The position numbers and the translations under genes were made by a program. Shown in pieces: positions 5,442 through 57,204 of a stretch of DNA of 64,000 nt; within the stretch, counting starts at the first letter, position 1, and each line of letters starts with the position of its first letter. This stretch comes from Anaerolineales bacterium (GTDB taxonomy: Bacteria; Chloroflexota; Anaerolineae; Anaerolineales; RBG-16-64-43), in NCBI GenBank assembly GCA_016932475.1, contig JAFGCU010000026.1, positions 92,111-156,110 of the forward strand, read 5' to 3'. A model generated the notes under the pieces. That model searched no databases. It saw only the letters and a list, made by a program, of their open reading frames with translations, and was not told where the DNA came from.

Positions 5442-5750
5442 TTCCGGAAGGCGTCCGGCGGCGAGCAATCCGCGCATGATGCAGCATCTTGGCGGGACGT
5501 GTACCATTAATGTCGGCATCGCCGCCAATCACGCGCCAACTCCGTCGCGCCCGTGCCTGCCCTCGCGCAGCAAGGGTGCTCGTGGCGGGCATTCCGGAAC
5601 CGGCCGAGTGTTTCCTGAAACGCAAAGACTGGTTCCCGCCCAGCGCACGCTTGCCTCGCGAGGGCTGACGCGGGAACGAGGAAACTCCGCCCGGCCGGAC
5701 ACATCCGCGCCGGGGTGACGGGGGTCATAATACAACAAATCTGCGGCGGC

Positions 5751-5842: not shown

Positions 5843-6886
5843 ATGGAAAAAGCCAAGGTTCTCATCGTCGGCAGCGGTGTTGCCGGCGCTGTTCGGCATC
5901 TACCCTTCTTCAAGAACCATCCCGAGGTGGAGCTCGTCGGGATGATCGACCCGGATCTCGCCCGCGCGCGGCGTGTGGCAGACGAAAACGGGATTCCCGG
6001 CGCGTACCCATCGCTTGAGGAAGGTCTCCGCCGGAGCGGCGCGCGGATCGTATCGATCTGCACCCCGCCGCAGACCCACAAGGATCTCACAATCTACGCA
6101 TTCGAGCACGGCGCGGACGTGCTTCTGGAAAAACCGTTCGCCGTCACCCTCGACGAGGCGCGCGGGATCGTCGCCGTCCAGCAGCGCACCGGCCGGAAGC
6201 TGTCGGTCGTTCACCAGAATAAATTCATGGCGGGGATCATGCGCATGACGGATATCGTCCGCCGCGGCGAGGCGGGGCGCGTGCTGCATGTCGGCCTTAC
6301 CTGGATGACCAACGGCGACCAGGACCGGATGGTGATCGACCCGAACTTCTGGTGCCACAAGATACCCGGCGGCCGCTGGGCGGAAAGCCTCCCGCACCAG
6401 CTCTACATCGCCTACGCGCTCGCCGGAGAAATGCGCCTCCTTTCCGTGGCCGCGCGCAAAACCACCGACAAGTGGCCGTGGATGAGCGCCGACGAAGTGG
6501 ATGTTGTTCTGGAGAGCAAAGAGGGATACGTCAACATCCGCATGTCGGCCAATCCCGCGGAAACCAAACGCCGGATCAACGTGCTGCACGGCACCAAGGC
6601 TTCGTATATGTTCTCTTACAAGACCGCCTTCGCCCTTGCCGAACGGCCGAACGCAAAAATATCGGTGGAGCTGTTCCGGCGCTGGCTTGGTGCGCGGCTC
6701 AGCGCCAAGCCCAGGCAGGCCGCGCCGCCTTCCCCGCACGAGTACGTCATCAACCATTTTCTGGATTACGTCCTGCACGACGGGCCCAATCCCACATCGC
6801 CCGAGGAAGCGCTGCATGTCGAGGAATTGAACGAGCATTTCGGCGCGGCGTTTGAGAGCGTTATCCGGAAAGCACCGGGCGGCTGA
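5843..6886 (+). CDS. Gfo/Idh/MocA family NAD(P)-dependent oxidoreductase (sugar-nucleotide dehydrogenase-like)
   Basis: Rossmann N-terminus KVLIVGSGVAGA...CTPPQTHKDL...LLEKPFA. ATG 5843 has a GGAG RBS; the listed ORF starts at 5816. Confidence 0.8.
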   Translation: MEKAKVLIVGSGVAGAVRHLPFFKNHPEVELVGMIDPDLARARRVADENGIPGAYPSLEEGLRRSGARIVSICTPPQTHKDLTIYAFEHGADVLLEKPFAVTLDEARGIVAVQQRTGRKLSVVHQNKFMAGIMRMTDIVRRGEAGRVLHVGLTWMTNGDQDRMVIDPNFWCHKIPGGRWAESLPHQLYIAYALAGEMRLLSVAARKTTDKWPWMSADEVDVVLESKEGYVNIRMSANPAETKRRINVLHGTKASYMFSYKTAFALAERPNAKISVELFRRWLGARLSAKPRQAAPPSPHEYVINHFLDYVLHDGPNPTSPEEALHVEELNEHFGAAFESVIRKAPGG

Positions 6887-29695: not shown

Positions 29696-29758
29696 TCGCC
29701 TCATTCCCCGAAAGGCAAAAAATAGGACGAAGAGGTTTACTGGATGATGCCCTGGTTA

Positions 29759-29900
29759 GGTCGTCATTCCCGCGCCCGCCCTCGCAGAGTGCGCAGGTTC
29801 GGTTTTGTACCGAGAACCTGCGCGACAACGGAGCGAGGGTGTTCCCAGCCGGAATCCAGGGTTTTCCGGAGGGGATGCCCGCCCCCGTTTCGCAACCATC
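29759..29900. repeat. partial copy of the TCGTCATTCCCGCGC-type intergenic repeat
   Basis: It shares the left terminus (gtcgtcattcccgcgc) and the ggaatccagggttt block with the copies at 43871 and 55173. It contains the hairpin GCGCAGGTTC...GAACCTGCGC. Confidence 0.5.
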
Positions 29901-30052
29901 CCCCGCTCAAGAGGCAAAACCGAGCGGGGATGCTCCGCGAGGGCAGGCGGGGGCAAGACAATCGTTGGATTTTACGGCGGTTCTTTTTGGACACCCTCGA
30001 ATTCTTTCTTACGTTATAATCCGCAAATCCGTTTCCCCTTGGAAAGCCATCC

Positions 30053-33098: not shown

Positions 33099-33145
33099 CC
33101 CCAACACGTAGGGGCACAGCGTCGCTGTGCCCCTACGTGTTGGGG
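33099..33145. repeat. 47-nt near-perfect palindrome (23-bp arms), probable terminator or repeat-family hairpin
   Basis: CCCCAACACGTAGGGGCACAGCG (33099-33121) is the exact reverse complement of 33123-33145. It sits between the glyQS stop and the next gene, and no T-tract follows. Confidence 0.6.
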
Positions 33146-43870: not shown

Positions 43871-43970
43871 TCGTCATGCCCGTGTGTACTTGGCGGGTAA
43901 CCAGTCCTGGAAACCCCGGATTCCCGCTAAGGACGCCCTTGCTGCGCGAGGACAGGCGCGGGAATGACGA
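43871..43970. repeat. TCGTCATGCCCG...GCGCGGGAATGACGA MITE-like element
   Basis: It has terminal inverted repeats. The internal block aaaccccggattccc is the reverse complement of ggaatccagggttt found in the 29759 and 55173 copies. Confidence 0.6.
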
Positions 43971-43977
43971 GTAAACC

Positions 43978-44002
43978 AGGGGCGGACCACAGGCCCGCCC
44001 CT
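43978..44002. repeat. hairpin AGGGGCGGACC-aca-GGCCCGCCCCT
   Basis: The stem has one mismatch. The GCCCCTAC end is shared with the 33099 palindrome. Confidence 0.5.
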
Positions 44003-46220: not shown

Positions 46221-46287
46221 ACCGCAGAGACGCAGAGGACGCAGAGTGTTTTTTATTTGTCCTCTGCGTCCTCTGCGTCTCTGCGGT
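46221..46287. terminator. 26-bp perfect hairpin between convergent genes (probable bidirectional terminator, repeat-family member)
   Basis: ACCGCAGAGACGCAGAGGACGCAGAG (46221-46246) is the exact reverse complement of 46262-46287. The loop is T-rich. Confidence 0.6.
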
Positions 46288-49090: not shown

Positions 49091-51295
49091 ATGTCTGACG
49101 GAATACCCAGCCCAACCGACGGCCCCCCGATCCTCCAAGCCGGGAATCGCGACATGAATTATTTCCTGAGCATGATCGGGTTTCTGACAGCCGCGGCGCT
49201 GCCGGTCGTAATGGCGTTCCTGGGCGGCGAGTGGGTGAGTCGCCAAGGCGCAATCGGCGCCTACATCGGGACGCTGGTGACCCTTTTCGCTTTGTTCCTG
49301 CTTCTGATCGCGGCGGGCGTTTGGTTGAAAAAGCGGGCTCTCCCGCCCCTTGCGGGACTTCCTGCAGCCTATGTAACCCTGGTCGTCCCGGTAACCTGCC
49401 TGCTGATGATGATGACGGTTACTTATCAATTTCCTCCGATGGGATATGGAATGGGGATTTTAATTGCCCATTTGGGATTTCTCATCCTGTGGAGGTTCGG
49501 CCGGGCGCGCATCAGCGGATCCGTCTTTTTGGCATCCATGAATAAAATAATTATTCTATTGCTTCCGCTCTTCTATGGGGGAATTTTCTGGGGTTGGTTT
49601 ATTCAACGATATAAGCCTTTTCTCGGCCGGGGGGCTATTGTGCTTTTGGCGGCGATGATCGCCGGATTCGCCGTGTTCACACAATCCGACAGGTTTAGGC
49701 CTCTGCGGCGGAGATGGAGCTCTCAAGGCTGGATCGTCCTCCTGCTAGGATTGTTGCTTTGCGGATTGGTCTACCAACCGGAGCTGCCCCACCTTCGATC
49801 CCATTACAACACCCTTCTGGCGACCATGCAGGATGTCCTGAGCGGAAAATTCATATTCGTGGATACCTTGTCCCAATATGGGGTCGGGATCGTTTACTTT
49901 TTACTGGCCGTCTTTAACCTCTTCCGGCTGCCGGTCGCATACCCGGGCCTGGCCATCGTTCTGAACGTGTTATACATCCTCCAATTTGCCCTGTTGTTCC
50001 TTATCCTTCATCAGGCAACCAAGAATATATTTATCAGCCTGGCCGGACTTGCCGGAATCCTGTATTTCGCCTACTTCGCCGTCTCCTGGCCGAGCATGCT
50101 GCGCGTCCCGGCGCAAAGCCCTTTACGATACGGGATGACGTACCTATTGCTGGGCGTGGGATGGGCCGGGATGAACCGCACGGGAAGGGTGTGGCGGATT
50201 GCCGAGCTGGTTCTTTTGGGAGCGGCATCGGTGTGGAGCTTGGAAGTATTGTTCTTCACGGTCATCCCCTTGGACGCTCTGCTGTTCACCGGGGGTGTGC
50301 TTTTTTCCGATAAGCCTAGAACCGGGCTGCGCGAATTCGGAAATCGGTTTCTGCTGCAGATCGGCGTGATCGGATTCTGCTGGATCGCATGGTGGGTTGC
50401 GACGGCGATAGCCGCCGGGCAGCCGCCCAACCTTTCCTATTATTTTGAGGTGTTCCTCAAATATACATCCTCGGAGCGATACGGGCCGCAGATGGATTTC
50501 CACTCCTTTTGGAATGGCGTGGTCCCCGCGATTTACCTTGGCACCCTCCTGGCAGTGGTGTTCACATCCTGGAGGCAGCGAAGCCGGCTTCCCGGAGAAA
50601 TCGCCGCTGTAATGGCGGGCTTTTCCGTTGCCGGATTACTGCAATATCTGTATTATTTTGTTTATGACCTAGATTATCACCTATCCCTTATCTGCACGCC
50701 GGCGATCCTTGTGATCGTGCTTTGGATTTTCATATCCCAAAAGGATCGGACCGCCCGGGGGGTTCCTCGGCTCAACCGATGGATTTTCGGATTGACGGTC
50801 ATCATCAGCGTGTGGTTTTGCATGGTTCTGACGAGCGGGTTTTTCAATATTGGGATAAAGAATTCCCTGATTTATAAAATCAATCGGGACTGGTTTTTGG
50901 AAGAATCGCTTGTGTTCACGAATCCATACCGCCTCCAGCCGTCGAACGATACGGTGGTAACCCTGGCCGCCTTTGTTCAAAAATACGCGGCCGGTGATCC
51001 GTCCATTGCGATTTTCGCGAAACCCGAGGACCAGACGGAAGTGCTCCTCCTTACGCACAAGACTCATCTTCTGGATTTAACGGATCCGCTCATTTCCACA
51101 TCCTCCCGGTCGTTTACTTCCCATATCCTGAGCTTGGCAGGGCGGTATGCGGGGGTCCCAGAGTACATTTTCTACGACTCCTCGGAAAACGCGCTGATCG
51201 AGACACAATGGAAAGCCTTCCAATTGCTCGCAGCCGGAGCTTCCTATTCGGTCGTCGACCGGAAGGGAAGCATACTGGTCTACCGGAAGCAATAA
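49091..51295 (+). CDS. large polytopic membrane protein (734 aa), unknown family, GT-C-like architecture
   Basis: An AAGGA RBS precedes the start. About 16 or more hydrophobic segments and a ~130-aa C-terminal soluble domain. GC content is visibly lower and patchier (35-63% per 60-nt line) than in flanking genes. Confidence 0.6.
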   Translation: MSDGIPSPTDGPPILQAGNRDMNYFLSMIGFLTAAALPVVMAFLGGEWVSRQGAIGAYIGTLVTLFALFLLLIAAGVWLKKRALPPLAGLPAAYVTLVVPVTCLLMMMTVTYQFPPMGYGMGILIAHLGFLILWRFGRARISGSVFLASMNKIIILLLPLFYGGIFWGWFIQRYKPFLGRGAIVLLAAMIAGFAVFTQSDRFRPLRRRWSSQGWIVLLLGLLLCGLVYQPELPHLRSHYNTLLATMQDVLSGKFIFVDTLSQYGVGIVYFLLAVFNLFRLPVAYPGLAIVLNVLYILQFALLFLILHQATKNIFISLAGLAGILYFAYFAVSWPSMLRVPAQSPLRYGMTYLLLGVGWAGMNRTGRVWRIAELVLLGAASVWSLEVLFFTVIPLDALLFTGGVLFSDKPRTGLREFGNRFLLQIGVIGFCWIAWWVATAIAAGQPPNLSYYFEVFLKYTSSERYGPQMDFHSFWNGVVPAIYLGTLLAVVFTSWRQRSRLPGEIAAVMAGFSVAGLLQYLYYFVYDLDYHLSLICTPAILVIVLWIFISQKDRTARGVPRLNRWIFGLTVIISVWFCMVLTSGFFNIGIKNSLIYKINRDWFLEESLVFTNPYRLQPSNDTVVTLAAFVQKYAAGDPSIAIFAKPEDQTEVLLLTHKTHLLDLTDPLISTSSRSFTSHILSLAGRYAGVPEYIFYDSSENALIETQWKAFQLLAAGASYSVVDRKGSILVYRKQ

Positions 51296-51367
51296 TCCCC
51301 TATCCGGAAGTGCGGGTTGGAAGATCACATAATTGTCCGTGGCCGTCCTCGACGCCGATATGGTTAA

Positions 51368-52849
51368 TTTCGCCCCTGCCCGGTCTCGCAGCTCTTCCCG
51401 GCCAACCCGCCGCCCACGCCGACATCCACCCCGACGCCGACCAGAACGCCAAGCACCTCGCCGACCAACACGCAGACGCCGACACCGACGTCTCAGGTTC
51501 CTTCCGGCCAGGTGTGGAAACCCCTGCCCCGCCCGATTACGGAGCACCGGTGAGTGTCCCGGCGTGGGAGTGGGCGGGGTTCTACTACGCCGGCTCCCAG
51601 CGTGTGGCGGCGCGTGCCTGCTCCGCCCGATCACGAAGCCGCCGGCGATCTTTCCAGCGCGGGAGTGAGCGGGGTTACCGGCAGCGCGAATCCTCAGGAG
51701 AACGGGCTGCCCGCCCCGCCCGTGCACGGAGCGCCGGTGATCTTTCCGGCGCGGGAGTGGGCGGGGTCACCGGCAGCGCGAATCCTCAGGAGAACGGGCT
51801 GCCCGCCCCGCCCGATCACGAAGCCGCCGGTGATCTTTCCGGCGCGGGAGTGGGCGGGGTTCTACACGGTTGGCGACCATCTTGGCAGCACGAGCCTGGT
51901 CGTGGATTCGGCCGACAACAAAGTCAGCGAGATGCGCTACACGCCGTGGGGCGAGACACGCCACCAAGGGGGGACTCCGCCTACCGACTACGGATACACC
52001 GGCCAGCGGGAGGAAGCCGGGATCGGATTGTATTATTACAATGCGAGGTGGTATGACGCGAAGCTGGGAAGGTTTGCGCAGGGGGATATGGTTATACCTA
52101 AATCAAAACAACCAAATGAATTTGATAGATATAGATATTGTAAAAACAATCCTTTATTGGTTGTCGATCCTAGTGGCAATATACCAAAAGAATGGTTCGA
52201 AAAATATTATGGTTATGATTACGATTGGTTTGTAAAAAATATTGGACGTGATTATGCAAACTTATTATTGGCCGTTATGCCAGGAGATAAAATTGTACTT
52301 GGAGGAAAAACCTATATGGTAGTAACTGATAAAAATGGAAATGTGGTTTTTCAAGCAGAAAACGGGACATTATTAAATGCATTTAATGAAATTGAAGGAG
52401 CGGGATTTAATGACCAGTTTGGTAAAAATCGATTTGATTTTCAAGCGTATAGATTTGTAAGGGGAGGGTCAGGAGGATTTGGAGGAGATGATAGATGGGA
52501 ACTTGCATATAATAGGTTTGGATATCAAAATGGTTGGAGTGACCCAAAGGCCGTTTATGAACATAGATCTGGAACTCTTGAAGGTCTTGCAGGTAAGTTC
52601 ATTGAAGGTGTGATAATGTCGGCCTTTTGTCCGCTTCCGTACGGTGGAAATATCTTATGTGGTGGAGTTATTTCAGTGCTGACACCAGATGGGGTTTTGC
52701 CTATAGGATTGGAGGAAGGAGATGTGGTAATGATGGTTTCATATGAAACAAAACAGGGATTTACTGAAGTATTTGATTGCAGAAACGGCGATATTAATAC
52801 TTCATGGAAAGTAGACCCTGTTCCAGTTCCGACTCCTCCAACGCCATAA
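51368..52849 (+). pseudogene. orphan Rhs/YD-type core C-terminal remnant fused to a low-GC C-terminal toxin-like domain
   Basis: A start-less PT linker is followed by Rhs-core blocks in shifting frames. These are FYYAGSQRVAAR, FYTVGDHLGSTS, YTPWGE, YTGQREEAGIGLYYYNARWYDAKLGRF and RYRYCKNNPLLVVDPSGN. A unique 222-aa tail follows (52181-52846). The longest intact ORF is 51554..52849, from a GTG. Confidence 0.65.
51521..51859 (+). repeat. four copies of a 58-61-nt GC-rich palindromic element at ~92-nt spacing
   Basis: Copies lie at 51521-51579, 51616-51673, 51707-51766 and 51799-51859. Each is bounded by CCCCGCCC...GGGCGGGG, and copies 2 and 4 carry an internal GATCAC...G(T/C)GATC stem. The 32-33-nt blocks at 51674-51706 and 51767-51798 are near-identical. 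Confidence 0.8.
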
Positions 52850-53725
52850 TTAAGCTTATTTTGATTAAGGAGAAAAATGAAAAAAAAATATACGAGAAGA
52901 TCGAATTGCTAAGTAGGCGCGATATATTAATTATTTTTTTCTATCACTCGATAATATATTGGGTGATTGTTCCTATTATTTATTTTCTAGATATACAAAT
53001 ATTAAGACCCTTATATATCTTAATATTTATTTGCTTCGCATTGGATGGATCAATACTATTTTTAAAAAAAAAATAAATCTCAAAAGATTAAGTATATCGG
53101 CATTATTTTGCTAATTTTATTTACTTTTGGAGTCACTAAAATGATGAATGAACTTGCCGGGTAACATTCAATTGTTATTATGTGGCGTGGAGATACGAAG
53201 CTCCCTTCGAGAGCTTAGGTAGAGTGATTGTTGCCCAGAAGGAGCCCGCAATCGAGAAATATTAGTGTGGCGGGCATCGTGTTAAGGAACGGGCATTTAT
53301 GCAATTATTGATATTTGAATAATTATTTCTCTCTGCATGATTATCAGTGGGAATAAAGCTTGGATTTAATTCTCTCCGTAATAGACAAATAACATGGTAA
53401 ATGTAATGGCATCGTGTTTGCGAAATGAGATTGAAAAAGCCTCTTTCGGAAGCAGATTTGGCCACTTTCGGTTGTCTGAAGGAGCTTGACCCGGCGTAAA
53501 GTAGACGGAGGGTATTGTGTTACCCCTCTGAGCGATAGGTGCTGGTGATCTTTCGCTGCGGGGATTTAGCGAGAAGTGATCACAGAGTGGGGTATTACTG
53601 TCTATGGAAAAGGTAGTGAAATTTTTGTTGCGAAATTTACGAACTGACTTCGATCGAGACAAGTAACCGGCGCTATTACACCACGCCCTCTCTACGTACT
53701 TATAAGATAATCTCCATTGAAGGAG
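52085..53725. other. low-GC compositional island (~30-40% GC in a ~65% GC background)
   Basis: I counted GC on individual 60-nt lines, for example 18/60 at 52081-52140. The switch is abrupt at ~52085, inside the Rhs-like ORF. GC-rich sequence returns at ~53725. Confidence 0.85.
52804..53076 (+). CDS. candidate immunity protein (small 2-TM protein), start ambiguous
   Basis: It lies immediately 3' of the toxin-like domain and is AT-rich. The hydrophobic core is ILIIFFYHSIIYWVIVPIIYFL...LYILIFICFAL. An ATG with an AAGGAG RBS at 52877 is out of frame by one nt across an A9 run (52880-52888). The in-frame ATG 52804 has no RBS. Confidence 0.4.
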   Translation: MESRPCSSSDSSNAIIKLILIKEKNEKKIYEKIELLSRRDILIIFFYHSIIYWVIVPIIYFLDIQILRPLYILIFICFALDGSILFLKKK

Positions 53726-53726
53726 A

Positions 53727-53949
53727 CTTCCCCAGCCTCCCCGCTCGCGAAATCTTCGCGCTGGGAAGACTGCCAGTGCTCATCGCTCCCCCGCTTCGTA
53801 ATCGTGCAGGTTCAAAAAACCGAACCTGCACACTCCATGGGGGCAGGCGGGGGAGAGGCTTTTTCCTCCCCCGTTAGTCTTCCCCCCAAGATCATGTCAC
53901 CCTATTTGCCCTCGACAACGTTTGTTTTAGTTTTTTAGGGCAAATAGGG
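53727..53949. repeat. stack of intergenic hairpins
   Basis: Three hairpins are present. CGCGAA-atc-TTCGCG sits inside cttccccagc...gctgggaag. GTGCAGGTTC/GAACCTGCAC spans 53804-53831. CCCTATTTGCCCT (53900-53912) pairs with AGGGCAAATAGGG (53937-53949). Confidence 0.65.
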
Positions 53950-55172: not shown

Positions 55173-55320
55173 GATCGTCATTCCCGCGCCTGCACCCGTG
55201 GAGCATCCCGGATCGATCCTGGTTCCAGAGACGGGATGAATGCGGAACGGGTGTGCGCTAAGCGGGAATCCAGGGTTTGCGAAAGTGGATGCCCGCTAAA
55301 TGCGCGCGGGCATGACGATC
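55173..55320. repeat. 148-bp MITE-like element (GATCGTCATTCCCGCGC...GCGCGGGCATGACGATC)
   Basis: The 17-bp terminal inverted repeats have one mismatch. This is the same family as the copies at 43871 and 29759. Confidence 0.7.
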
Positions 55321-57116: not shown

Positions 57117-57134
57117 GAAATAATTAGTAAATCT

Positions 57135-57204
57135 CACCGCAGAGACGCGGAGAGCGCAGAGAAATTAATAAAAAAATCTCAGCGTTCTCTGCGCCTCTGC
57201 GGTG
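57135..57204. repeat. imperfect long hairpin of the caccgcagag...ctctgcggtg family
   Basis: The arms are ~27 nt with about 4 mismatches, and the loop is A-rich. It is related to the perfect hairpin at 46221. Confidence 0.6.

What the first reader, a model, noticed from the sequence alone, without database searches (positions are those of the whole stretch)
51296..51860. Rhs/YD core remnant scrambled by four copies of a ~60-nt palindromic element at CRISPR-like spacing
Downstream of stop 51295 there is no start codon. A stop-bounded PT linker (ANPPPTPTSTPTPTRTPSTSPTNTQTPTPTSQVPSGQVWK, 51401-51520) is followed by the canonical blocks that precede the end of WapA/Rhs-type cores, each in a different frame:
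- FYYAGSQRVAAR (51580-51615)
- VTGSANPQENG (51674-51706, nearly duplicated at 51767-51798)
- FYTVGDHLGSTSLVVD (from 51860)

Between the blocks sit four related 58-61-nt elements. They are bounded by CCCCGCCC...GGGCGGGG, and copies 2 and 4 carry an inner GATCAC...G(T/C)GATC stem. Conceptually removing 51521-51579 (59 nt), 51616-51673 (58 nt) and 51707-51859 (153 nt) restores one frame reading ...GQVWK-FYYAGSQRVAAR-VTGSANPQENG-FYTVGDHLGSTS..., which is what intact proteins of this class look like.

There are two possible explanations. A small palindromic element may have repeatedly invaded and duplicated inside a toxin-gene core. Alternatively, a 92-nt coding segment may have been tandemly amplified with indels; in that case the elements, read in one frame, give PAPP..GAPV..PA.EWAG. 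Either way the core is inactivated upstream while the toxin-encoding 3' part stays open.
Basis: seen in the sequence. Interest (0 to 1): 0.7.

Follow-up and report, generated by a model that had tools for sequence, protein, structure and literature searches.

The report
Tiny hairpin elements littering toxin-gene remnant
A leftover piece of an Rhs-type bacterial toxin gene has been invaded at three places by a roughly 57-base self-pairing DNA element, later copied to give four copies; this is a new family of a known kind of selfish DNA, so far seen only inside this type of toxin gene.

Summary
Four related 57-59-nt GC-rich hairpin elements lie at 51521-51579, 51616-51673, 51710-51766 and 51802-51859. 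They sit between coding blocks of an Rhs C-terminal core fragment. That fragment continues into an open Rhs_assc_core domain and a low-GC toxin domain.

Removing the elements gives a peptide colinear with an uninterrupted metagenomic homolog (69% identity, E 3e-64). Related loci show they are insertions, not ancestral coding sequence:
- A syntenic contig carries only the first copy, and sites 2 and 3 are empty there.
- An Anaerolineales MAG carries a 57-nt in-frame copy at a fourth, different site.
- Three more contigs carry related hairpins of 24, 27, 60 and 124 nt at other positions of the same core.

There is no target-site duplication. Three of four sites lie just 5' of Phe/Tyr-Tyr codons. 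The regular 92-93-nt spacing is best explained by unequal crossover between the site-2 and site-3 copies, not by anything CRISPR-like.

Scans of 185,579 genomes, JGI metagenomes, viral contigs and 5.8 billion protein clusters found this element only in Rhs-core fragments.

I read it as a new REP/RPE/MITE-like hairpin family colonising a decaying orphan toxin cassette. The mobilising enzyme and the copy number in the host genome are unknown. Interest is moderate.

The parts
51368..51520 (+). Stop-bounded remnant ending in a Pro/Thr linker (51401-51520) and SGQVWK. It has no start codon. The PA14-type domain that precedes this linker in related loci is deleted here.
   Evidence: Translation. L002 and L005 carry PA14-like sequence before the same linker.
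51521..51579 (-). Hairpin element copy 1 (59 nt), at site 1 (K|YY). It is orthologous to the 60-nt in-frame copy in L002. The window copy has lost one A and so shifts the frame. In the inferred element-sense orientation (hairpin then GGGGCAGG tail) it lies on the minus strand.
   Evidence: It is 87.5% identical to the L002 copy. Site 1 is empty in L001, L004 and L005.
51580..51615 (+). Host coding block FYYAGSQRVAAR, out of frame with the blocks on either side.
   Evidence: aligns to YYYAGSQPVAIR of P0001.
51616..51673 (-). Hairpin element copy 2 (58 nt, with an extra C and a GATCAC..GCGATC inner repeat), at site 2 (VAAR|VTGS). It shifts the frame. Its outer arms are degenerate. The boundary is ambiguous by 2 nt (GT).
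   Evidence: Site 2 is empty in L002, L005, L004, L001 and L003.
51674..51709 (+). Host coding block VTGSANPQENGL, first copy.
51710..51766 (-). Hairpin element copy 3 (57 nt). In the host frame it reads PAPPVHGAPVIFPAREWAG. Its 5' junction is that of copy 4 and its 3' junction is that of copy 2, as expected for a recombinant.
   Evidence: DNA fold -20.8 kcal/mol, z -2.4.
51767..51801 (+). Duplicate of the VTGSANPQENGL block (35 nt, out of frame). It differs at 1 of 36 positions from the first copy.
51802..51859 (-). Hairpin element copy 4 (58 nt), at site 3 (ENGL|FY). Together, copy 3 + the duplicate block + copy 4 add 150 nt, so the host frame is restored at FYTVGDHLGS.
   Evidence: Fold -22 kcal/mol, z -3.4. 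Site 3 is empty in all five other loci.
51860..52177 (+). Intact end of the Rhs shell/core, FYTVGDHLGSTS...YYYNARWYD...DPSG. The TIGR03696 match is approximately 51938-52177.
   Evidence: 71 bits, cut-off 32.5. (69% identity to P0001).
52178..52849 (+). C-terminal polymorphic toxin domain of unknown family. GC is 30-42% against roughly 60-70% in flanking genes. L002 and L001 carry a different toxin after the same core.
51554..52849 (+). The only long ORF (GTG start, 431 aa). Its first ~100 residues are read through elements and shifted blocks. It has no secretion or shell part, so it is probably not a functional toxin gene.
52850..53500 (+). AT-rich tail of the cassette (24-42% GC). It holds only short or broken ORFs, for example ATG at 52878 followed by an A9 run and an early stop. 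This is where an immunity gene would be expected; none was identified.
   Evidence: Only a weak sub-threshold DUF7314 hit.

Best explanation
The region 51368-53500 is a decaying 'orphan' polymorphic-toxin cassette: a PT linker, the last ~100 residues of an Rhs core, a foreign low-GC toxin domain and an AT-rich tail. It sits next to unrelated cell-envelope genes in an uncultured Anaerolineales-like bacterium.

**The element.** The conserved core segment has been colonised by a small non-autonomous hairpin element. Its architecture is:
- an outer 8-9-bp GC stem (CCCCGCCC/GGGCGGGG);
- an inner 6-7-bp stem (GCGCCGG/CCGGCGC);
- an A-rich loop (AAAGATCA in element sense);
- a short unpaired GGGG-CAGG tail.

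**What is shown.**
- The element inserted independently at three sites in this lineage.
- It did so without target-site duplication.
- Two of the three window sites, like the fourth site in L001, lie immediately 5' of T(A/T)YTAY (Phe/Tyr-Tyr codons).

**What is inferred.**
- Unequal crossover between the site-2 and site-3 copies duplicated the intervening 35-nt coding block plus one element. That gave the regular 92-93-nt array.
- Mobilisation is in trans by an enzyme that acts on single-stranded hairpin DNA (HUH/Y1, RAYT- or IS200/IS605-like). The grounds are the hairpin-plus-tag architecture and the absence of duplications.
- The clustering reflects target preference plus weak selection on a dead cassette.

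The basic element is 57 nt (60 nt in the L002 site-1 copy). In the orientation and phase found, it encodes a stop-free 19-20-aa peptide (PAPPxxGAPVIFPAREWAG). It can therefore persist as a 'protein-coding palindrome' in open frames (L001, L002). In the window the 58/59-nt variants break the frame.
For: **Insertions, not ancestral sequence**
- Filled and empty sites are visible in the six-locus alignment, from sequences.
- The de-interrupted peptide is colinear with P0001: 69% identity, E 3e-64.
- The syntenic L002 shares the upstream 734-aa gene end and 82-91% identical flanks, yet has only site 1 filled.
- L001 has a 57-nt copy at a fourth site, with site 1 empty.

**Hairpin structure**
- DNA folds give z-scores of -2.4 to -4.9 for copy 3, copy 4 and the L001, L002 and L003 site-1 copies.
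- The L003 site-1 copy keeps a 9-bp outer stem with different arms: CCCCTCACC/GGTGAGGGG against CCCCGCCC/GGGCGGGG.

**Related hairpins elsewhere in the same core**
- Hairpins of 24, 27, 60 and 124 nt end in (G)CAGG(C). The 24-, 27- and 60-nt ones also share an AAGAnCA-type loop.
- They lie at other positions of homologous Rhs cores in L003, L005 and L017.

**No target duplication**
- The junctions can be read directly.

**Recombinant copy 3 and the duplicated block**
- Copy 3 combines the 5' junction of copy 4 with the 3' junction of copy 2.
- The duplicated block is 97% identical to the original.

**Independent assembly**
- L006 confirms copies 1 and 2.
Against: - No copy of the 57-nt element was found outside Rhs-core fragments. 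There are none elsewhere in the 64-kb window.
- Scans of 185,579 representative genomes, JGI metagenome contigs and viral contigs gave only chance matches or none.
- Among 5.8 billion protein clusters searched in all six frames, only P0002 and P0004 carry it.
- A genome-wide selfish element would normally also be seen in intergenic DNA. The host genomes themselves were not searchable, so this is unresolved.
- No transposase candidate was identified.
- Site 2 (CGC^GTC) does not fit the T(A/T)YTAY target.
- The link between the 57-nt class and the 24-27-nt class rests on short motifs (loop and tail). The tail motif GGGGCAGG is not enriched in the window.
- The excess of lengths divisible by three is confounded, because most relatives were found through protein searches.
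Confidence: 0.6

Rival explanations
1. The pattern is a coding tandem repeat. A ~92-nt coding segment containing the PAPP..EWAG peptide was ancestral and was amplified with indels. No mobile element is involved.
For: - TRF finds a 92-nt period.
- The copy-3/copy-4 pair with the duplicated VTGSANPQENGL block is a genuine tandem duplication.
- One frame reads PAPP...EWAG without stops.
Against: - Five homologous loci lack the peptide at sites 2 and 3, and three lack it at site 1.
- The same 57-nt sequence occurs at an unrelated position of the core in L001.
- Among 141 homologous core fragments, internal insertions are rare and confined mainly to close relatives of the window.
- A simple tandem duplication cannot give three elements with only two VTGS blocks.
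Confidence: 0.05
2. The hairpins are functionally tied to Rhs toxin cassettes. They could be recombination signals or hot spots that promote or block exchange between orphan cassettes and an expressed rhs gene, or silencers of orphan cassettes. On this reading they are not general selfish DNA.
For: - Every known copy of the 57-nt element lies in an Rhs-core fragment, as does every 24-27-nt relative found: window, L001, L002, L003, L005, L017.
- No copy lies in the ~63 kb of flanking window sequence or the flanks of the other loci.
- At least eight independent insertions fall within ~500 nt of the homology segment that mediates toxin displacement in Rhs systems (established knowledge of rhs orphan recombination).
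Against: - Ascertainment is strong: the related loci were found by searching with Rhs sequences, and intergenic copies in the host genomes could not be searched.
- Several insertions break the frame or carry stops (window copies 1, 2 and 4; the second 27-nt insertion in L003).
- The cassettes show other decay: a deleted PA14 part, and TAG in place of TGG in L002. This fits neutral littering.
- No full-length rhs gene or recombinase was found nearby.
- The 124-nt hairpin in L003 has an intergenic relative in the window at 29880-29950, so at least that class is not Rhs-specific.
Confidence: 0.15
3. The elements are removed or skipped during expression, by translational bypassing as in T4 gene 60 or mitochondrial 'byps', or by an RNA-level excision. 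On this reading the interrupted gene is still functional.
For: - Conceptual removal restores one frame exactly.
- The elements are stable hairpins of 57-59 nt, similar in size to known bypassed gaps.
Against: - There are no matching take-off and landing codons at the junctions: AAA/TTC, CGT/GTT, CTG/TTC.
- The restored frame still lacks a start codon, a secretion domain and the Rhs shell.
- In L001 and L002 the element is in frame and simply translated by gene callers.
- No Rfam family matches.
Confidence: 0.03
4. The repeats are an assembly artefact: a mis-assembly of short reads across a repeat.
For: - The independent Logan contig L006 stops at 51706, exactly at the start of the 92-nt duplication.
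- The number of copies in the copy-3/copy-4 part is therefore not independently verified.
Against: - L006 reproduces copies 1 and 2 base for base.
- Copies 2, 3 and 4 differ by SNPs and indels, which give unique paths.
- The same element occurs in three other independent assemblies.
Confidence: 0.05

Closest known systems
Rickettsia palindromic elements (RPEs; Ogata et al., as cited in PMC3733652)
   Same: - A small palindromic selfish repeat inserted inside protein-coding genes.
- It is often in frame and stop-free, so it is translated as an extra peptide.
- Presence or absence differs between orthologs.
   Different: - RPEs are ~100-150 bp, occur in many unrelated genes and intergenic regions, and are confined to Rickettsia.
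- This element is 57-60 nt with no sequence similarity to RPEs.
- It occurs in Chloroflexota-like bacteria, and so far only in Rhs-core fragments.
REP / REPIN elements mobilised by RAYT tyrosine (HUH) transposases, including REPs located inside ORFs (PMC3733652)
   Same: - A GC-rich imperfect palindrome plus a short conserved unpaired tag.
- No target-site duplication.
- Subfamilies differ in stems but keep the tag.
- Occasional intragenic, in-frame copies are known.
   Different: - Canonical REPs carry a 5' GTAG or CGTC tag, are 20-40 bp, are high-copy and are mostly extragenic.
- Here the tag is a 3' (G)CAGG(C); only one 124-nt variant in L003 ends in GTAGGC.
- The copy number appears very low, and no RAYT gene was seen.
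Bacterial MITEs (e.g. Correia/NEMIS, RUP, Nezha; review PMC10969869)
   Same: - Non-autonomous and short, with terminal inverted repeats.
- They can insert in or next to genes and form stable hairpins.
   Different: - MITEs are usually 70-300+ bp and are flanked by target-site duplications made by DDE transposases.
- No duplication is seen here, and the element is smaller.
Mitochondrial GC clusters and 'byp' elements of yeasts (own knowledge: Lang et al. 2014, PNAS)
   Same: - GC-rich palindromes of 27-60 nt that insert into coding sequence at many sites.
   Different: - Those are organellar, sit in AT-rich genomes and are skipped by the ribosome.
- There is no evidence of bypassing here.
Orphan rhs-CT / immunity cassettes downstream of rhs genes (established for Enterobacteria)
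   Same: - A short stretch of conserved Rhs core joined to a foreign low-GC toxin domain.
- The toxin differs between related loci after the same core breakpoint (window, L002 and L001).
   Different: - No full-length rhs gene lies in the 64-kb window.
- The ancestral upstream part is a PA14-like domain plus a PT linker rather than YD repeats.
- No immunity gene was identified.

Membership tests
Rhs / YD-repeat polymorphic toxin (C-terminal core) | RHS repeat-associated core domain (TIGR03696) ending in the DPxG cleavage motif, followed by a variable toxin domain | tested here: met
   TIGR03696 scores 71.4 bits against a cut-off of 32.5. VVDPSGN is present. The toxin differs in L001 and L002 after the same core.
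Rhs / YD-repeat polymorphic toxin (C-terminal core) | Long YD-repeat shell and an N-terminal secretion/trafficking domain in the same ORF | tested here: not met
   Only ~100 residues of core precede the toxin. Upstream lies a PT-linker remnant without a start codon, and then an unrelated polytopic membrane protein. It is a fragment or orphan, not a complete Rhs gene.
REP elements (GTAG/CGTC-tagged palindromes, RAYT-associated) | Conserved GTAG or CGTC tetranucleotide at the 5' end of a 20-40-bp palindrome | tested here: not met
   The ends are CCTGCCCC...GGGCGGGG, which gives a 3' GGGGCAGG tail in element sense. Only the 124-nt L003 variant ends in GGGTAGGC.
REP elements (GTAG/CGTC-tagged palindromes, RAYT-associated) | High copy number, mainly extragenic, with a cognate RAYT gene in the genome | not testable with these tools
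   The host genome was not in the searchable collections: scans returned only chance hits and did not even find the window itself. There are 0 further copies in the 64-kb window.
MITE (DDE-transposase derived) | Terminal inverted repeats | tested here: met
   There are 8-9-bp terminal inverted repeats, CCCCGCCC/GGGCGGGG. The L003 copy has different arms that remain fully complementary.
MITE (DDE-transposase derived) | Target-site duplication flanking the insertion | tested here: not met
   Filled-versus-empty comparison shows no more than 1 nt of ambiguity at sites 1, 3 and 4, and 2 nt (GT) at site 2.
Rickettsia palindromic elements (protein-coding palindromes) | Palindromic repeat inserted in frame in ORFs and absent from orthologs | tested here: met
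   The L001 (57 nt) and L002 (60 nt) copies are in frame and read through by gene callers. Orthologous sites are empty in other loci. This shows that it behaves in the same way. It is not homologous to RPEs.
Integron attC site | Imperfect palindrome bounded by the core sites RYYYAAC ... GTTRRRY | tested here: not met
   No such core sites are present at the element ends.
CRISPR array | Identical direct repeats separated by unique spacers of similar length | tested here: not met
   The repeats are only 76-93% identical. The 'spacers' are host coding blocks, and two of them are 97% identical to each other.

The most novel reading that the evidence does not exclude
A superfamily of very small (24-60 nt) tagged hairpin elements may be specialised on the conserved core segment of Rhs polymorphic-toxin cassettes. 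Its members share a variable GC stem, a conserved AAGAnCA loop and a 3' CAGG tail. They would insert without duplication, in both orientations and mostly in multiples of three. On this reading they influence which orphan toxin cassettes can recombine or be expressed, so they would be cassette-specific mobile DNA rather than general genome litter.
Probability: 0.15. Interest if true: 0.7.

Novelty: new member of a known kind. Interest (0 to 1): 0.42.

Why it matters
Small palindromic elements that insert into coding sequence and survive as extra peptide loops are best documented in Rickettsia and for a minority of REPs.

This case adds a much smaller example from uncultured Anaerolineales-like bacteria. 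Clear filled and empty sites between close relatives indicate gain since these lineages diverged.

The striking concentration is at least eight independent hairpin insertions within ~500 nt of one gene segment, spread over five assemblies. None lies in the flanks. If that is not an ascertainment effect, it points to a target preference or a link with toxin-cassette recombination. That link would be worth testing.

There is also a practical point. Such insertions split or extend Rhs ORFs and will mislead gene callers and toxin annotation in metagenomes.

Tried and rejected
1. **Rfam scan of 51000-52200 at E<=1.** It gave no match.
2. **Collection scans with a TIR-plus-inner-stem pattern.** The genome contigs, metagenome contigs and viral-contig scans gave only 5, 4 and 0 stretches. 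On inspection all matches were chance hits in unrelated sequence. The source genome and the two MAGs that carry the element are evidently not in these collections.
3. **HMMER search of 1.84 billion representatives** with the translated repeat region gave one spurious hit to an unrelated repeat protein. The sensitivity for a 19-aa insert is low.
4. **Looking up TsaE and the 431-aa ORF by exact sequence,** to find other assemblies of the locus. Neither is on record.
5. **blastn-short of the four copies against the window.** Nothing beyond 13-nt chance matches turned up.
6. **Testing whether the tail motif or the loop-type hairpins are enriched in the window.** GGGGCAGG occurs 5 times against 4.8 expected, and the hairpins 11 times against 9.4. 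The wider 'superfamily' is therefore not a high-density repeat in this genome.
7. **Rejected readings:**
   - CRISPR array: the 'spacers' are duplicated host coding blocks.
   - attC site: no core sites.
   - Intrinsic terminator: no T-run after the hairpin.
   - The intergenic GTCATTCCCGCG-type MITEs of the window as the source: there is no sequence similarity beyond GC-rich ends.
8. **Pfam and NCBIfam** gave no family for the toxin domain or for the 734-aa upstream membrane protein.
Full report
**1. What is in the sequence**

Between the stop of a 734-aa ORF (49091-51295) and a low-GC toxin region lies a GC-rich stretch of about 70% GC. The 734-aa ORF encodes a polytopic membrane protein with no family hit. 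The GC-rich stretch carries four related elements:

| Copy | Coordinates | Length |
|---|---|---|
| c1 | 51521-51579 | 59 nt |
| c2 | 51616-51673 | 58 nt |
| c3 | 51710-51766 | 57 nt |
| c4 | 51802-51859 | 58 nt |

- A strict pattern built from the four copies matches only these four places in the 64-kb window, and never in shuffles.
- TRF reports a 92-nt period.
- Between the copies lie the blocks FYYAGSQRVAAR, VTGSANPQENGL (twice) and FYTVGDHLGSTS, in shifting frames.
- From 51860 the frame runs open into a TIGR03696 Rhs-associated core domain (71 bits, cut-off 32.5).
- It then continues into a 30-42% GC C-terminal domain ending at 52849.

An independent Logan assembly of run SRR13394437 (L006) is identical to the window up to 51706 and stops there. 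That point is where the 92-nt duplication begins. Copies 1 and 2 are therefore independently confirmed. The c3/c4 copy number is not.

**2. The elements are insertions**

A search with the region returned short Rhs-core fragments from metagenomes. I aligned their DNA with the window.

- **P0001/L004** has no element and reads GQIWK-YYYYAGSQPVAIR-VTGSQNPQENG-LFYTLGDQLGSTS. The window peptide with the elements removed aligns colinearly to it across all three junctions (69% identity, E 3e-64).
- **L002** (GCA_040961635.1) is syntenic.
  - It shares the end of the same upstream gene, and its flanks are 82-91% identical.
  - It carries only the site-1 element, as a 60-nt in-frame copy (TPAPPDYGAPVIFPVREWAG).
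  - Sites 2 and 3 are empty there (gtgcgc|gtcacc and aacgggctg|ttctac).
- **L001** (an Anaerolineales MAG, GCA_016928575.1) has site 1 empty. It carries a 57-nt in-frame copy at a fourth site, between EEAGIGL and YYYNARWYD.

**3. Anatomy of the element**

- As single-stranded DNA the better-preserved copies fold into a long hairpin.
  - The outer stem is CCCCGCCC/GGGCGGGG.
  - The inner stem is GCGCCGG/CCGGCGC, with an 8-nt loop.
- Fold z-scores are -2.4 to -3.5 for c3, c4 and the L001 and L002 copies. Copies c1 and c2 in the window are degraded.
- A divergent copy at site 1 in L003 has different outer arms, CCCCTCACC/GGTGAGGGG, that remain fully complementary (z -4.9). The pairing therefore appears to be what is conserved.
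- There are two length variants:
  - The 57-nt form (60 nt in the L002 site-1 copy) is stop-free in the frame found and reads PAPPxxGAPVIFPAREWAG.
- Filled-versus-empty comparison shows no target-site duplication: at most 1 nt of ambiguity at sites 1, 3 and 4, and 2 nt at site 2.
- Three of the four sites lie directly 5' of Phe/Tyr-Tyr codons: AAG^TACTAC, CTG^TTCTAC and TTG^TATTAT. Site 2 is CGC^GTCACC.

**4. Origin of the regular spacing**

- c3 has the 5' junction of c4 (GGGCTG|CCCGCC) and the 3' junction of c2 (GCGGGG|TYACCGGC).
- The two VTGSANPQENGL blocks differ at 1 of 36 positions.
- Three elements with only two blocks cannot arise from a simple tandem duplication of one insertion.
- The arrangement fits independent insertions at sites 2 and 3, followed by unequal crossover between them.
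- The patchy differences between c3 and c4 suggest later gene conversion, perhaps from c1. This last step is inference.

**5. Relatives of the element**

Other homologous Rhs-core fragments carry further small hairpins at other positions.

- **27-nt insertions** occur in L003 (two) and L005:
  - CCCCAGC-CTGAAGCAC-GCTGGGG-CAGG
  - CCCGG-CTAAGAGCACA-CCGGG-GCAGGC
  - CCCGGA-CAAGAACAC-TCCGGG-GCAGGC
- **A 24-nt insertion** occurs in the more distant L017: GCGGG-AAGAACA-CCCGC-CACAGGT.
- **A 60-nt insertion** in L003 matches the window element in the opposite orientation. Its core is CACCGG-AAGATCAT-CGGTG, and its tail is GGGGCAGGC.
- **A tandem pair of 124-nt hairpins** in L003 ends in GGGCAGGC and GGGTAGGC. 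This class has an intergenic relative in the window at about 29880-29950.
- Read in 'element sense', the window copies are antisense to the Rhs frame and end in GGGCGGGG-CAGG.
- The shared features are short: a GC stem, an AAGAnCA-type loop and a (G)CAGG(C) tail. I treat the superfamily link as plausible, not proven.

**6. Distribution**

- The 57-nt element was not found elsewhere in the window.
- Scans of 185,579 species-representative genomes and of JGI metagenome contigs returned only chance matches, as inspection confirmed.
- The scan of IMG/VR viral contigs returned none.
- A six-frame peptide query against 5.8 billion protein clusters found only P0002 and P0004, which are both Rhs-core fragments.
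- A HMMER scan of 1.84 billion representatives found nothing relevant.
- Among 141 homologous core fragments, internal insertions are rare and concentrated in the window's close relatives.
- There are two caveats:
  - The host genomes themselves were not searchable.
  - The related loci were found through Rhs queries, so the apparent restriction to Rhs cores is partly ascertainment.
- Within the window, however, four copies in 340 nt against none in the other 63.6 kb is real clustering.

**7. Interpretation**

The locus is a decaying orphan toxin cassette.

- There is no start codon for the linker frame.
- The PA14-like part seen in L002 and L005 is deleted here.
- The window contains no Rhs shell and no full-length rhs gene.
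- L002 additionally has TAG in place of the Trp codon of YTPWGE.
- The toxin domain differs between the window, L002 and L001 after the same core breakpoint, as in rhs orphan modules.

The best-supported account is a new family of small, non-autonomous, tagged hairpin elements that behave like REP/RPE/MITE elements. These elements inserted repeatedly into this segment and were then locally amplified by recombination.

The hairpin-plus-tag design and the absence of target duplication point to mobilisation by a single-strand-specific HUH/Y1-type enzyme rather than a DDE transposase. This is inference, and no such gene was identified.

Bypass or RNA-level removal, a dedicated role in cassette recombination, and an assembly artefact are less likely. 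The reasons are given under the rival explanations.

**8. Comparison with known families, and verdict**

- Rickettsia palindromic elements and intragenic REPs behave in the same way (PMC3733652; review PMC10969869). Membership of any named family fails on at least one defining feature:
  - there is no GTAG or CGTC tag;
  - there is no target duplication;
  - there are no attC core sites;
  - there are no unique spacers.
- It is best filed as a new member of the known kind 'small palindromic mobile elements that can reside in coding sequence'.
- Interest is moderate.
  - The filled and empty sites are clean, and the density in one gene segment is unusual.
  - The phenomenon itself has precedent, and the key open question is the element's genome-wide distribution and its mobilising enzyme. 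That question needs data not available here.

Noticed in passing
window 5543-5680, 29750-29960, 43871-43981, 53816-53854, 55175-55318: An intergenic MITE-like palindromic repeat family with ends of the type GTCATTCCCGCG...CGCGGGAATGAC and inner GAGGGCAGGC motifs. About five copies or fragments lie in 64 kb. One sits directly downstream of the toxin island, just before tsaE.
   Followed up: partly
window 29880-29950 and L003 1050-1292: The window's intergenic hairpin (…CGCAACCATCCCCCGCTCAAGAGGCAAAACCGAGCGGGGATGCTCCGCGAGGGCAGGC) belongs to the same family as a 124-nt hairpin in L003. In L003 that hairpin is inserted in tandem inside the Rhs core after YTG (fold -43 kcal/mol, z -7.6).
   Followed up: partly
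window 46221-46287 and 57131-57174: A perfect 26-nt inverted repeat built from 9-nt units (CGCAGAGGA / GTCCTCTGC) lies between convergent genes. A related copy occurs 11 kb away. It may be a terminator-like repeat family.
   Followed up: no
window 33099-33145: A perfect 23-nt palindrome (CCCCAACACGTAGGGGCACAGCG / CGCTGTGCCCCTACGTGTTGGGG) with a 1-nt centre lies at a gene boundary.
   Followed up: no
window 52050-53500: A sharp GC drop from about 70% to 24-42% starts inside the Rhs core (after GRFAQGD). It covers the toxin domain and an AT-rich tail. The tail has a short ORF starting at 52878 that is broken after an A9 run, possibly a frameshifted immunity gene.
   Followed up: partly
L002 1614-2040 and L005 5750-6400: PA14-like domain remnants, with an internal stop in L002, precede the same PT linker and Rhs core. 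The ancestral gene therefore looks like PA14 - PT linker - short Rhs core - toxin, an unusual architecture for an Rhs-type toxin.
   Followed up: no
L005 about 6640-6690: A 24-nt in-frame tandem duplication (CGCTATACGCCGTGGGGCGAGACA, giving RYTPWGETRYTPWGETR) lies in the Rhs core. It is a separate kind of small rearrangement in the same segment.
   Followed up: no
L016 about 1620-1660 (P0014): A 39-nt in-frame insertion (GAAGCATCCCGGAGCGACCGAAGGGAGCGTAGGGACAAA) lies in another Rhs core at RY|..GE. It is a different sequence type from the hairpins described here.
   Followed up: no
L004 1332-3640: An IS21-type transposase pair (Mu-transposase C-terminal domain plus IstB) lies immediately downstream of the uninterrupted Rhs-core/toxin cassette of P0001.
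   Followed up: no
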